Part shown: piece by piece, positions 41,301-44,300 of the stretch
Layout of the letters: every line of letters begins with the position of its first letter
Position numbering within the stretch: position 1 is the stretch's first letter
Assembly: GCF_024223415.1 (NCBI RefSeq)
Contig: NZ_CP100500.1
Reading direction: 5' to 3' (one strand)
Source: Escherichia coli
GTDB lineage: Bacteria > Pseudomonadota > Gammaproteobacteria > Enterobacterales > Enterobacteriaceae
Length of the DNA: 64,000 nucleotides
Made by a program: the position numbers

Positions 41301-44300
41301 CCATCTTCTGTATCGTAACTGCGTTCGTCCAACAGGAGATATTGTGGGCAGGTTTCAACCCAGACTGGCTGGTGATTCGCACGGGCAAGACGCAGATAAT
41401 CCAGACCTAAGCCGTTAGACAGGTGCACGATATAGAGCGGGGCGTTACCGGCAATTTGTGCCAGGTTAATCATGCGGGCGATGGCTTCCGCTTCGCATTC
41501 CAGAGGGCGACTCAAGGCGTGATAGCGCGGCGCGGTTAACCCTGCGGCGATAAACTCCGCCCGCTTGCTGGCGATAGCCGCATCATTTTCCGGGTGCACG
41601 GTGGTCAGCGCGCCGGATTCATGCAGACGGCGTAATGCCTGCAAAACCTCGTCATCGTTGAGTTTGTATTGATAGGTTAAATAGAGTTTAAAACTGCTCA
41701 GTCCTTCCTCGACCATCATCGGGATTTCGTCGAGGATGGCGTGATTAATGTGCTGGATCACACCGTGAAAGCTGTAGTCGATGACCGCCTTATGGGCGGC
41801 ATAGCCACGATAAACCTCCAGTTGATGGCGTAACCGACAGCCGTTTGGGCCAAATCCCATATGGTCAATAATGGTTGTTGTACCGCCACACGCAGCTGCG
41901 CGGGTACCGGTAAAAAAATCATCACAACTGCGCGCGATGCCGACATCAATATTGAAATGCGTATGGACATCCACGCCGCCAGGGAAAACGTAACAGCCAG
42001 TGGCATCAATTTCTTCATACGGGAGCTGCGGCGAAATATTGTTGCCCAACTGGCGAACAATCCCGCTTTCAATCAGCAAATCCTGTTTGGCTTGTCCATC
42101 TGCGTTAACGACAGTGCCGTTTTTGATCAATACGCGCATAGCAAACTCCAAAAAACCTCCGGCGAACCGGAGGGGAATAAGTGAAGAGTAATTATTCGGT
42201 TGCCAGCCAGCTTAACGGGATTGCAGCGTACATCGCGGCACAGGTCACCAGGTGAGATTTCCAGGTTTTTTCGTTAGGTGCATGCGCTTCAGGTTCTTTA
42301 CCCGGGCCAAAGCCGATCACCGGAATGCCGTGACGGCCCATGATAGATACGCCGTTAGTTGAGAAGGTCCACTTATCAACAACCGGCGCTTTGCCAAACA
42401 GCCCTTCGTAGGCATTCACCAGTGCTTTAACGGTGAAGTGATCTTCTTCCACTTTCCAGGTCGGGAAGTAGCATTCGGTTGGGTAAACCAGGCCAGTCCA
42501 GGACGGACGGTCGTAGTTGTACATAGAAACAACCGCGTTAGCTTTCTGTACTGCAGGCAGGGCGCGGATTTCGTCCAGCGCGCCTTCCCAGGTTTCGCCC
42601 CAGGTCAGACGGCGGTCAATAGAGACGGCGCAGCTATCTGCTACAGCGCAACGGCTTGGGGATGTGAAGAAGATTTCAGAAACGGTGAGGGTGCCTTTGC
42701 CGAGGAATTCGTCATAACCCAGACGTTGGGAGAGTTCTTGTAATTCGCCAAGAATCGGACCCATTTTGAAAATGGCGTTGTCACCGCGTTCTGGCGCAGA
42801 ACCGTGGCAGCTAACACCCTGAACATCAATACGAATTTCCATACGACCGCGCTGACCACGGTATACCTGGCAGTCGGTTGGTTCGGTACTGACCACAAAT
42901 TCCGGGCGAATGCCGGATTGTTCAATAATGTACTGCCAGCACAGACCGTCGCAGTCTTCTTCCTGCACAGTACCGGTAACCAGCAGGGTATATTCATCTT
43001 CCAGACCGAGGTCTTTAATGATTTTACCGGCATAAACCATAGATGCCATGCCGCCTTCCTGGTCGGAAGTACCGCGACCACCGATCAGCTCATCAGTTTC
43101 CATGCCTTCGTACGGATCGAAGTCCCAGTTTTTGATGTTGCCAATGCCGACGGTATCGATATGAGCGTCCATTGCCACCAGACGCGGGCCGTGGCCGATA
43201 TAACCGAGAACGTTACCCATCGGGTCGATTTCAACTTTATCGAAGCCGACTTTTTCCATCTCTTCTTTAATACGATGTACTACGCGTTTCTCGTCGCAGC
43301 TTTCACTGGGAATAGCAACCATGTCGCGCAGGAAGCGAGTCATGTCCGCCTGGTAATCTTTTGCTTTTTCAAGAATCAGTTTGAATGGAATATTCTTAGC
43401 CATTATTTTTCTCCAGATTTTTTACTCCCCGTTTTGCAGGGAGCAGTTCCAATAGGGTGATTAAGGTGCTACAGCGTGTTTGCCTTCCCAGACAACTTCT
43501 CGGTAGTGCTTCACGTCGGTGTCGCCTTCAGTGCTGATAACCAGCACTACGGCATCTTTGTTCAGCGCCAGTTTTTCCATCAGGCTTTGACGTTGCGGGT
43601 GATAATGAACCGCCGCGAGAACGCCCAAACCGACAGCGCCGGATTCACCGGAGATGATGCGCGGGTCGTTGCCGTACGGATTACCCAGCACGCGCATACC
43701 TAATGCGGCAACGCTGTCCTGGCAGGAGATGAATTGGGTGGCGCAGTTACGTAGGATTTCCCAGCCCAGCGGGTTAGGTTCGCCACAGGCCAGGCCCGCC
43801 ATGATGGTGGCCATATCACCGCCAACGTTGACGATGTCGCCTTTGACACCGGAGCGATAAATACAGTCAGCTTTGTCAGGTTCAACAATAATGCTGTGCA
43901 GATTTTGCGGGCTATAGACGTCGACCAGATAACCCAGCACACCACCGGCCATTGCTCCGACACCGGCTTGCAGCAGAACGTGCGTCGGGGTTACGCCCAT
44001 TTCACGCATTTGCTCGACGGCTTCATCTGCCAGGGTTGCGTAGCCTTGCATGATCCAGGTTGGGATTTTGGTGTAACCTTCCCATGCCGTGTCCTGTACC
44101 ACTTCCCAGCCGTGCTGCTGCGCGTGTTGCATGGTCAGGCGAACGGTATCGTCATAGTTCATATCCGTGACGATGCACTCGGCACCGAGGTTCAGAATGG
44201 CGTCAACGCGTTCCTGAGCAGAACCTTTCGGCATGTAAATCACCGCATTCTGTCCGAGTTGCTGCGCTGCCCACGCCACACCGCGCCCGTGGTTGCCGTC

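What the first reader, a model, noticed from the sequence alone, without database searches (positions are those of the whole stretch)
42140..42191. Hairpin plus A-run between ygeY and hyuA inside a putative operon
The 52-nt ygeY-hyuA spacer contains a GC hairpin (CCTCCGGCGAACCGGAGG) that on the transcribed strand is followed by a U-run and sits directly over the hyuA ribosome-binding region. It could act as an internal attenuator or set differential expression of the downstream hyuA-yqeA genes.
Basis: seen in the sequence. Interest (0 to 1): 0.3.

Follow-up and report, generated by a model that had tools for sequence, protein, structure and literature searches.

The report
Terminator-like hairpin between ygeY and hyuA
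The short gap between two genes of E. coli's anaerobic uric-acid breakdown cluster holds a textbook transcription-terminator hairpin. It is evolutionarily conserved and probably lowers expression of the two downstream genes, which makes it a real but ordinary kind of control element.

Summary
Window 42140-42191 is exactly the 52-nt ygeY-hyuA spacer of E. coli, with genes on the minus strand. On the mRNA it reads CCUCCGG-UUCG-CCGGAGG, then U6, then the GGAG ribosome-binding motif, 6 nt, and AUG.

It is the only site in the 64-kb window that meets strict intrinsic-terminator criteria; 0.01 such sites are expected by chance.

A GC-rich hairpin sits at the same place in 66 of 81 gammaproteobacterial loci, with compensatory base changes. 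It keeps a fixed distance from the ygeY stop codon (median 14 nt), not from the hyuA start. It is therefore a 3'-end element of ygeY, not a ribosome-binding-site element. Tests for occlusion of the ribosome-binding motif and for a conserved antiterminator were negative.

The U-run is lineage-specific: E. coli, Morganella, Hafnia and a few others have it, and most Enterobacteriaceae do not. Similar U-less hairpins follow ygeW and ygeX, and occur in most co-directional spacers of this window.

Best reading: a leaky intrinsic terminator that also acts as a barrier to 3' exonucleases, lowering hyuA-yqeA mRNA relative to ygeWXY. hyuA is co-regulated with ygeWXY but has no sigma-54 site of its own.

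No 3'-end data exist, because the operon is silent in the published Term-seq conditions. This is a new member of a known kind, of low to moderate interest.

The parts
42192..43403 (-). ygeY coding sequence (403 aa), stop TAA at 42194-42192
   Evidence: ORF list; RefSeq annotation of a 100%-identical record
42140..42191 (-). 52-nt ygeY-hyuA intercistronic spacer (the finding)
42156..42173 (-). RNA hairpin CCUCCGG-UUCG-CCGGAGG: 7 bp (6 G-C), 4-nt loop, -12.3 kcal/mol. The common E. coli allele has 8 bp and -15.6 kcal/mol.
   Evidence: covariation among orthologues
42150..42155 (-). U6 tract directly after the stem (U5 in K-12 and most strains, U4 in one strain). Predicted transcript 3' ends lie 7-9 nt past the stem, about 42149-42147.
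   Evidence: The position of the 3' ends is inferred from the general behaviour of intrinsic terminators.
42146..42149 (-). hyuA Shine-Dalgarno GGAG, 6 nt upstream of the AUG and outside the stem
   Evidence: GGAG or GAGG is conserved at this place in the alignment
40754..42139 (-). hyuA coding sequence (461 aa)
39774..40706 (-). yqeA/arcC (carbamate kinase). It is joined to hyuA by a 47-nt spacer without a hairpin (best -2.7 kcal/mol).
44687..44708 (-). Sister hairpin in the ygeW-ygeX spacer (9 bp, -16.9 kcal/mol, no U-tract), conserved across genera
43423..43445 (-). Weaker hairpin in the ygeX-ygeY spacer (-13 kcal/mol) followed by an A-run; less conserved
45996..46011 (-). Sigma-54 promoter element TGGCACACTTATTGTT upstream of ygeW, the likely source of the transcripts that reach the hairpin
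   Evidence: The sequence is identical to ChIP-seq site OS30 assigned to ygeW in PMC4591121.
39562..39587 (-). Operon-end hairpin GGCCGGGUGGGUAAUACCAUCCGGCC followed by AUUUUCAUUU, shared with the convergent yqeB. A second copy lies at 39742-39767.

Best explanation
The element is a Rho-independent (intrinsic) terminator at the 3' end of ygeY, inside the ygeW-ygeX-ygeY-hyuA-yqeA gene string.

Proposed mechanism:
1. Transcripts start at the YgeV/sigma-54 promoter upstream of ygeW.
2. When RNA polymerase has transcribed the 18-20 nt hairpin and the U5-6 tract, some complexes release the RNA about 7-9 nt past the stem, which is at or inside the hyuA Shine-Dalgarno motif.
3. The remaining complexes read through and make hyuA-yqeA mRNA.
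4. The same hairpin then caps ygeWXY RNA against 3'-to-5' exonucleases.

The net effect is less hyuA-yqeA message than ygeWXY message. This is a fixed attenuation, not a regulated one.

The hairpin is ancient. In most relatives it lacks a U-tract and probably acts only as a 3'-end protective structure. The E. coli lineage carries the full terminator form.

What is shown: the anatomy, that it is not a chance feature, the structural conservation, and the anchoring to the stop codon. What is inferred: actual termination, its efficiency, and the effect on expression.
For: - Canonical anatomy, and the only strict terminator-like site in 64 kb against 0.01 expected.
- A terminator score of about +29. 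The formula is the d'Aubenton-Carafa form recalled from memory and used with current energy parameters, so it is useful only for ranking. By comparison the operon-end hairpin scores +1.5, the ygeW-ygeX hairpin -5, the ygeX-ygeY hairpin -60 and the Kluyvera orthologue -23.
- The stem has 0.99 pairing probability in the common K-12 allele in every upstream context tested.
- Structural selection in 34 Enterobacterales sequences: 90.3% of cells paired against 77% in shuffles (0 of 500 shuffles reach it), and 41-62% when the partner columns are slid. There are 33 cells with changes on both sides against 9.1 expected. Six of 9 pairs show compensatory change.
- Within E. coli the stem is invariant, while the loop, the base pair at the foot of the stem and the U-run length vary. 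All 5163 genomes that carry the region keep it at 95% identity or more.
- A hairpin of -12 kcal/mol or better follows ygeY in 66 of 81 loci.
- The distance from stop codon to hairpin has a median of 14 nt and does not depend on spacer length (rho -0.06). The distance from hairpin to start codon tracks spacer length (rho 0.94).
- Evidence for read-through: hyuA is in the 13-gene YgeV iModulon with ygeWXY. Sigma-54 sites are listed for xdhA, ygeW, ygfK and ygfT but not hyuA. No sigma-70-like site scoring 9 of 12 or better lies between the one inside ygeY (43049-43021, about 880 nt upstream of the hyuA start) and hyuA.
- U-less stem-loops are documented 3'-end protectors in E. coli (PMC6061677).
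- Weak circumstantial point: in vitro reconstitution used ten times more YgeW and YgeY than HyuA.
Against: - No experimental 3' end or coverage step is available. ygeY and hyuA are absent from the searchable Term-seq supplements, probably because the operon is silent in standard media.
- Most orthologous hairpins lack a U-tract: only 14 of 81 loci score above 15, and six of those are E. coli. The conserved function is therefore not canonical termination.
- HyuA acts before YgeW, YgeY and YgeX in the pathway. There is no obvious logic for switching it off separately.
- The stem is short (7-8 bp) and has no upstream A-tract, so efficiency could be low.
- In the window's rare 7-bp allele, a competing pairing with the last ygeY codons lowers the predicted stem occupancy to 0.25-0.46 in some contexts.
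Confidence: 0.6

Rival explanations
1. The hairpin is only an mRNA decay barrier. RNA polymerase does not stop here. The hairpin blocks PNPase and RNase II after downstream cleavage or Rho-dependent termination, so ygeWXY segments outlive hyuA-yqeA segments.
For: Most orthologues have the hairpin but no U-tract. Sister hairpins without U-tracts follow ygeW (70 of 75 loci) and ygeX (34 of 77). In this window, 11 of 15 co-directional spacers of 35 nt or more carry a hairpin of -12 kcal/mol or better. U-less stem-loops are shown to protect 3' ends in E. coli (PMC6061677).
Against: E. coli keeps a U4-U6 tract directly on the stem in every allele examined. This combination occurs nowhere else in the window and is expected 0.01 times by chance. 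A hairpin with such a tract is expected to terminate at least partly. The two roles are not exclusive.
Confidence: 0.2
2. The hairpin is an efficient operon-end terminator. ygeWXY is a complete operon, and hyuA-yqeA is transcribed from its own promoter inside the 3' part of ygeY.
For: One paper names the operon 'ygeWXY' (PMC10602906). The terminator score is higher than that of the hairpin at the end of yqeA. In Vibrionaceae, Shewanella and Aeromonas the spacer is 100-300 nt with several hairpins, which leaves room for a promoter.
Against: No sigma-54 site is listed for hyuA, and no sigma-54 motif with at most 1 mismatch lies near it. No sigma-70-like site lies between the one deep inside ygeY (43049-43021, about 880 nt upstream) and hyuA. 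The 52-nt spacer is filled by the hairpin and the ribosome-binding site. hyuA co-varies with ygeWXY. Another paper treats all five genes as one operon.
Confidence: 0.1
3. The hairpin is a translational control element for hyuA. It, or a pyrimidine-rich 5' flank clamped by it, hides the Shine-Dalgarno motif, so hyuA translation depends on ribosomes finishing ygeY (translational coupling).
For: The minimum-energy fold pairs AUUCC upstream of the stem with GGAGU. The predicted unpaired probability of the SD in E. coli is low, 0.04. The hairpin ends 6 nt from the SD.
Against: Shuffling the 5' flank gives equally low SD accessibility. Across 41 species the real SD is slightly more open than in shuffles (0.32 against 0.26, p = 0.09). 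The hairpin tracks the stop codon, not the start codon, when spacers lengthen. The SD itself is outside the stem.
Confidence: 0.05
4. The terminator releases a small regulatory RNA derived from the 3' end of ygeY. A hairpin with a U-tail is the usual Hfq-binding module.
For: A hairpin followed by U5-6 is the module found at the 3' end of sRNAs derived from 3' UTRs (general knowledge). Nothing more supports this.
Against: No Rfam match in 39000-47000 other than a REP-like near-hit elsewhere. No conserved non-coding seed region exists: only 18 nt separate the stop codon from the stem. No experimental signal is known.
Confidence: 0.03
5. It is a chance palindrome or a protein-binding DNA palindrome with no RNA role.
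For: It is a perfect inverted repeat in DNA.
Against: The chance expectation is 0.01 per window. Orthologues change the stem sequence while keeping the pairing. That pattern fits an RNA structure and not a sequence-specific protein site.
Confidence: 0.02

Closest known systems
Intrinsic (Rho-independent) terminators acting as intra-operon attenuators. Examples recalled from general knowledge: the rplL-rpoB attenuator and the internal terminator of rpsU-dnaG-rpoD in E. coli.
   Same: GC-rich stem-loop plus U-tract between two cistrons of one transcription unit. Partial read-through is expected and would give a fixed step-down in expression of the distal genes.
   Different: Termination has not been measured here. 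The stem is short (7-8 bp). The U-tract runs straight into the next gene's Shine-Dalgarno motif. Most orthologues lack the U-tract.
U-less 3'-terminal protective stem-loops of Rho-terminated transcripts (Dar and Sorek 2018, PMC6061677), and intercistronic decay-blocking hairpins. The malE-malF REP and the Rhodobacter puf hairpin are recalled from general knowledge.
   Same: A stable stem-loop shortly after a stop codon. This form is conserved in most relatives and also after ygeW and ygeX. It would stabilise the upstream segment of a polycistronic RNA.
   Different: The E. coli copy does have a canonical U-tract. It is single-copy and not a REP element. No exonuclease or half-life data exist.
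Regulated transcription attenuators and riboswitch expression platforms
   Same: A terminator hairpin directly upstream of a gene's ribosome-binding site.
   Different: No conserved antiterminator, no leader peptide, no aptamer and no Rfam family. Ribosomes translate to within 18 nt of the stem.

Membership tests
Intrinsic (Rho-independent) terminator | GC-rich stem-loop on the transcribed strand (stem about 5-14 bp, loop 3-8 nt) | tested here: met
   7 bp with 6 G-C pairs, 4-nt loop, -12.3 kcal/mol. The common allele has 8 bp and -15.6 kcal/mol.
Intrinsic (Rho-independent) terminator | U-rich tract immediately 3' of the stem | tested here: met
   U6 in the window and U5 or U4 in other E. coli alleles. 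Absent in most other genera.
Intrinsic (Rho-independent) terminator | Lies downstream of a stop codon, out of reach of the terminating ribosome | tested here: met
   The stem starts 18 nt after the UAA. The cross-species median is 14 nt. The extent of ribosome reach is taken from general knowledge.
Intrinsic (Rho-independent) terminator | Transcript 3' ends 7-9 nt past the stem in vivo, or RNA release in vitro | not testable with these tools
   No ygeY or hyuA entries in the held supplements of two Term-seq studies. Other supplements are not held.
Regulated attenuator (antiterminator, leader-peptide or riboswitch type) | Conserved, mutually exclusive alternative structure | tested here: not met
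   A competing pairing with the last ygeY codons exists only in the rare window allele. The K-12 allele keeps 0.99 stem probability in all contexts.
Regulated attenuator (antiterminator, leader-peptide or riboswitch type) | Sensor domain recognisable as a known RNA family | tested here: not met
   Rfam search at an E-value limit of 1 over 39000-47000 gave no hit at the spacer.
Intercistronic 3'-end protective hairpin (exonuclease barrier) | Stable stem-loop just 3' of the upstream cistron, conserved as a structure | tested here: met
   66 of 81 loci have a hairpin of -12 kcal/mol or better. Covariation and stop-codon anchoring are both seen.
Intercistronic 3'-end protective hairpin (exonuclease barrier) | Not followed by a U-rich sequence (Dar and Sorek class) | tested here: not met
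   E. coli has U4-U6. Most orthologues do meet this feature.
Intercistronic 3'-end protective hairpin (exonuclease barrier) | Steady-state 3' end at the base of the hairpin, with a longer half-life for the upstream segment | not testable with these tools
   Needs RNA 3'-end mapping and decay measurements.
REP/BIME repeated extragenic palindromes | Many copies per genome with a family consensus | tested here: not met
   One place per genome in 5163 E. coli genomes. The 7-mer arm is not enriched in the window.
RBS-sequestering translational operator | SD or start codon inside the stem, or paired by a conserved anti-SD | tested here: not met
   The SD lies 6 nt outside the stem. SD pairing is no greater than in flank shuffles across 41 species. 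The hairpin is not anchored to the start codon.

The most novel reading that the evidence does not exclude
The hairpin would be one of a conserved set of stop-codon-anchored RNA hairpins (after ygeW, ygeX and ygeY, but not after hyuA). Across Gammaproteobacteria these would divide the anaerobic urate-degradation mRNA into segments of graded abundance that match enzyme demand. In E. coli the ygeY hairpin would have been upgraded to a true terminator whose efficiency is conditional, for example on how closely ribosomes follow RNA polymerase at the ygeY stop codon or on elongation factors. That would give a second, post-initiation control point on flux through the pathway.
Probability: 0.12. Interest if true: 0.45.

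Novelty: new member of a known kind. Interest (0 to 1): 0.2.

Why it matters
The ygeW-ygeX-ygeY-hyuA-yqeA genes encode the lower part of the recently solved anaerobic urate (2,8-dioxopurine) degradation pathway of gut bacteria. That pathway is relevant to gout and is already being engineered in E. coli Nissle (PMC12507026).

Published sources disagree on the operon boundaries, giving 'ygeW', 'ygeWXY' or all five genes. A leaky terminator after ygeY would explain this disagreement. It would also limit hyuA-yqeA expression when only the ygeW promoter is strengthened, so removing or weakening it is an obvious engineering lever.

Beyond that, it is a routine example of intra-operon tuning by a terminator hairpin.

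Tried and rejected
1. SD sequestration by the pyrimidine-rich 5' flank was suggested by the minimum-energy fold. It was rejected because real flanks pair with the SD no better than shuffled flanks in 41 species.
2. A role tied to the hyuA ribosome-binding site was rejected because the hairpin is anchored to the stop codon.
3. An antiterminator formed with the last ygeY codons was rejected. It is present only in the rare window allele and absent in K-12.
4. A known RNA family: Rfam gave nothing at the spacer and nothing in a long Vibrionaceae spacer.
5. A REP-type repeat was rejected because the element is single-copy.
6. Experimental 3' ends were sought. The Adams 2021 and TERMITe supplements contain no ygeY or hyuA. 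The Dar 2018, Conway 2014, 3'-UTR-valve and PRECISE-1K supplements are not held.
7. The RNA-seq of the promoter-insertion strain CBT2.0 exists only as a figure, so no numbers could be retrieved.
8. An internal promoter for hyuA: no sigma-54 match and no sigma-70-like site nearer than the one about 880 nt upstream inside ygeY.
9. A SECIS-like reading was considered because YgeY is linked to selenium metabolism. It was dropped because the stop codon is UAA in E. coli and varies among species.
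Full report
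**What is there**

The window is E. coli chromosome, 100% identical to strain SCU-316. The genes around the finding lie on the minus strand in this order: ygeW (44715-45905), ygeX/dpaL (43461-44657), ygeY (42192-43403), hyuA (40754-42139) and yqeA/arcC (39774-40706). The finding's coordinates, 42140-42191, are exactly the 52-nt ygeY-hyuA spacer.

On the mRNA strand the spacer reads as follows:
- UAA stop codon, then 18 nt
- CCUCCGG, the 5' arm (42173-42167)
- UUCG, the loop
- CCGGAGG, the 3' arm (42162-42156)
- UUUUUU (42155-42150)
- GGAG (42149-42146)
- UUUGCU, then AUG

The statement that the hairpin sits over the ribosome-binding region is not quite right. The Shine-Dalgarno motif lies 6 nt beyond the stem, and only the U-run touches it.

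**Is it more than chance?**

The spacer folds at -16.4 kcal/mol, with z = -3.0 against dinucleotide shuffles. The hairpin alone is -12.3 kcal/mol. The loose terminator scan lists it, but that scan is not enriched overall: 19 sites against 15.7 expected.

I therefore applied strict criteria: at least 7 Watson-Crick pairs, at least 5 G-C pairs, a loop of 3-8 nt, and T5 starting within 1 nt of the stem. This site is the only hit on either strand of the 64 kb. One hundred dinucleotide shuffles gave a mean of 0.01.

A terminator score of the d'Aubenton-Carafa form gives the values below. I recalled the formula from memory and used it with current energy parameters, so it is meaningful only for ranking.

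| Hairpin | Score |
|---|---|
| ygeY-hyuA (this finding) | about +29 |
| End of yqeA | +1.5 |
| ygeW-ygeX spacer | -5 |
| ygeX-ygeY spacer | -60 |
| Kluyvera orthologue of this hairpin | -23 |

**Variation within E. coli**

The region is present in 5163 of 5426 complete genomes, always at 95% identity or more over 81 nt. The stem core is invariant. The variable positions are:
- the loop (UUCG, UUCA or UUUA);
- the nucleotide at the foot of the stem, where G gives 8 bp plus U5 (as in K-12 and most strains) and U gives 7 bp plus U6 (as in this window, identical in only 41 genomes);
- the length of the U-run, which is U4 in one strain.

An invariant stem with a free loop is the pattern expected of a constrained RNA hairpin.

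**Comparison across species**

A genome scan with YgeY returned 80 loci from Enterobacterales, Aeromonas, Vibrionaceae, Shewanella and some Betaproteobacteria. The order ygeW-ygeX-ygeY-hyuA-yqeA is widely conserved. A hairpin of -12 kcal/mol or better follows ygeY in 66 of 81 loci, and the stem sequences differ between genera.

In a MAFFT alignment of 34 Enterobacterales spacers:
- The nine-pair helix is paired in 90.3% of cells, against 77% in column shuffles (0 of 500 shuffles reach it) and 41-62% when the partner columns are slid.
- There are 33 cells with changes on both sides, against 9.1 expected.
- Six of 9 pairs show compensatory change.

The hairpin keeps its distance from the ygeY stop codon: median 14 nt, interquartile range 9-15, Spearman rho with spacer length -0.06. 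Its distance to the hyuA start grows with spacer length (rho 0.94). It is therefore a 3'-end element of ygeY, not an accessory of the hyuA ribosome-binding site.

The U-tract is not conserved. Scores above 15 occur only in the six E. coli loci and in Morganella, Hafnia, Serratia silvae, one Buttiauxella and two Aeromonas. Typical Enterobacteriaceae have the stem followed directly by UCUGGAG. In Vibrionaceae the spacer is about 200-300 nt and carries a stop-proximal hairpin, a conserved long stem-loop ending in a U-run, and a third hairpin.

**Context within the operon and the window**

- A conserved hairpin without a U-tract also follows ygeW (70 of 75 loci, with covariation).
- A weaker one follows ygeX (34 of 77 loci).
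- None follows hyuA. Its spacer to yqeA is 12 nt or overlapping in most Enterobacteriaceae.

Stable hairpins in co-directional spacers are common here. Eleven of 15 such spacers of 35 nt or more in the window reach -12 kcal/mol, yet only ygeY-hyuA has a real U-tract. The hairpin alone is therefore ordinary. The hairpin combined with the U-tract is what stands out.

**How it most likely works**

Transcripts come from the sigma-54 promoter upstream of ygeW. TGGCACACTTATTGTT at 46011-45996 is identical to the ChIP-seq site assigned to ygeW in PMC4591121. That study lists sigma-54 sites near the cluster for xdhA, ygeW, ygfK and ygfT, and none for hyuA.

hyuA nevertheless belongs, with ygeWXY, to the 13-gene YgeV iModulon (PMC10602906 and PMC12133099). 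No sigma-70-like site lies between the one inside ygeY at 43049-43021, about 880 nt upstream, and hyuA. hyuA mRNA therefore most likely arises by read-through of the hairpin.

Given the canonical anatomy, I infer partial intrinsic termination, with the hairpin also protecting the ygeWXY 3' end from exonucleases. U-less stem-loops of this kind are documented 3'-end protectors in E. coli (PMC6061677). That is probably the ancestral and more general role of these hairpins.

The literature disagrees on the operon boundaries: 'ygeW' alone (PMC8743547), 'ygeWXY' (PMC10602906), or all five genes (bioRxiv 10.1101/2022.12.12.520169). A leaky boundary at this position would produce exactly that disagreement.

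**Alternatives tested**

- **SD occlusion.** The minimum-energy fold pairs a pyrimidine run before the stem with GGAG. Shuffled flanks do the same, and across 41 species the real SD is slightly more open than in shuffles (0.32 against 0.26). Rejected.
- **Regulated attenuation.** A 201-nt fold shows a competitor pairing with the last ygeY codons. It exists only in the rare window allele, where stem probability is 0.25-0.96 depending on context. The common K-12 allele stays at 0.99. Rfam gives nothing at the spacer. Rejected.
- **REP-type repeat.** The element is single-copy. Rejected.
- **Full terminator with a separate hyuA promoter.** Not excluded, but the co-regulation and promoter evidence above count against it.

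**Limits**

No tool here can show that RNA polymerase stops. The held supplements of Adams et al. 2021 and of the TERMITe study contain no ygeY or hyuA entries, as expected for an operon that is silent in standard media. Other supplements are not held. RNA-seq of an E. coli Nissle strain with a strong promoter inserted upstream of ygeW exists (PMC12507026) but is available only as a figure. That dataset, or Term-seq under anaerobic growth on urate, would settle the question.

**Verdict**

An attenuator that sets differential expression is the best reading. 'Over the RBS' is not.
- The element is a new, unreported member of a very familiar class: an intra-operon intrinsic terminator and 3' protective hairpin.
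- The cross-species covariation and the anchoring to the stop codon are solid but unsurprising.
- Practical relevance is modest: it bears on engineering urate-degrading E. coli.
- Interest is about 0.2.

Noticed in passing
window 44687-44708 (-): The ygeW-ygeX spacer holds a 9-bp hairpin (GGGCCGAUC-AGCU-GGUCGGCCC, -16.9 kcal/mol) with no U-tract. An equivalent hairpin is present in 70 of 75 related loci, with CG-to-UA and GC-to-AU compensatory changes.
   Followed up: partly
window 43423-43445 (-): The ygeX-ygeY spacer holds a CUCCC...GGGAG hairpin (-13 kcal/mol) followed by an A-run rather than a U-run. Only 34 of 77 loci have a hairpin of -12 kcal/mol or better there.
   Followed up: partly
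window 39561-39768: A 28-nt direct repeat lies at 39561-39588 and 39741-39768, spaced 180 bp. It duplicates the yqeA/yqeB bidirectional terminator hairpin on either side of a REP-like insertion. E. coli Nissle has a single copy in a 40-nt spacer. Inside the insertion there is a near-threshold Rfam match to ES036 (CssrF) sRNA at 39634-39676 (-), 36.3 bits against a gathering score of 37.6.
   Followed up: partly
window 45996-46011 (-): The sigma-54 promoter motif TGGCACACTTATTGTT lies 91 nt upstream of the ygeW ATG. It is identical to a published sigma-54 ChIP-seq site (PMC4591121).
   Followed up: yes
window 42155-42156 (allele): The window carries a minority allele with a 7-bp stem and U6. 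Only 41 of 5163 E. coli genomes match it exactly over 81 nt. K-12 and most strains have G at the foot of the stem, giving 8 bp and U5. Strain FDAARGOS_1268 has U4.
   Followed up: yes
whole window: co-directional intergenic spacers (locus L091 = window 64000-32001, locus L092 = window 32000-1): Eleven of 15 co-directional spacers of 35 nt or more contain a simple hairpin of -12 kcal/mol or better. Examples are ssnA-ygfM (-19.7), recJ-prfB (-19.0), gcvH-gcvP (-15.8) and yqeC-yqeB (-12.5). Almost all lack U-tracts.
   Followed up: partly
L072:7195-7500 and the Photobacterium/Vibrio loci L068, L073, L075, L076, L081, L083: In Vibrionaceae the ygeY-hyuA spacer is about 200-300 nt. It has a stop-proximal hairpin, then a highly conserved block of about 75 nt that forms a long stem-loop (UCCGUCCCGAGGG...CCCUCGGGAUGGA) ending in a U-run, then a third 12-bp hairpin. 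There is no Rfam match. A conserved ATG about 60 nt upstream of the tblastn start suggests that HyuA is longer at its N-terminus there.
   Followed up: partly
E. coli NZ_CP148401.1 (hit H50) and 263 genomes without a match: In one genome the match ends after 152 nt of ygeY and the next annotated gene is guaD, which implies a deletion removing hyuA through xanQ. About 5% of complete E. coli genomes (263 of 5426) lack the ygeY-hyuA junction altogether.
   Followed up: no
window 40707-40753 (-): The hyuA-yqeA spacer has no hairpin (best -2.7 kcal/mol). In most other Enterobacteriaceae it is only 12 nt, or the genes overlap by 4 nt, which suggests tight co-expression of HyuA and the carbamate kinase.
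   Followed up: partly
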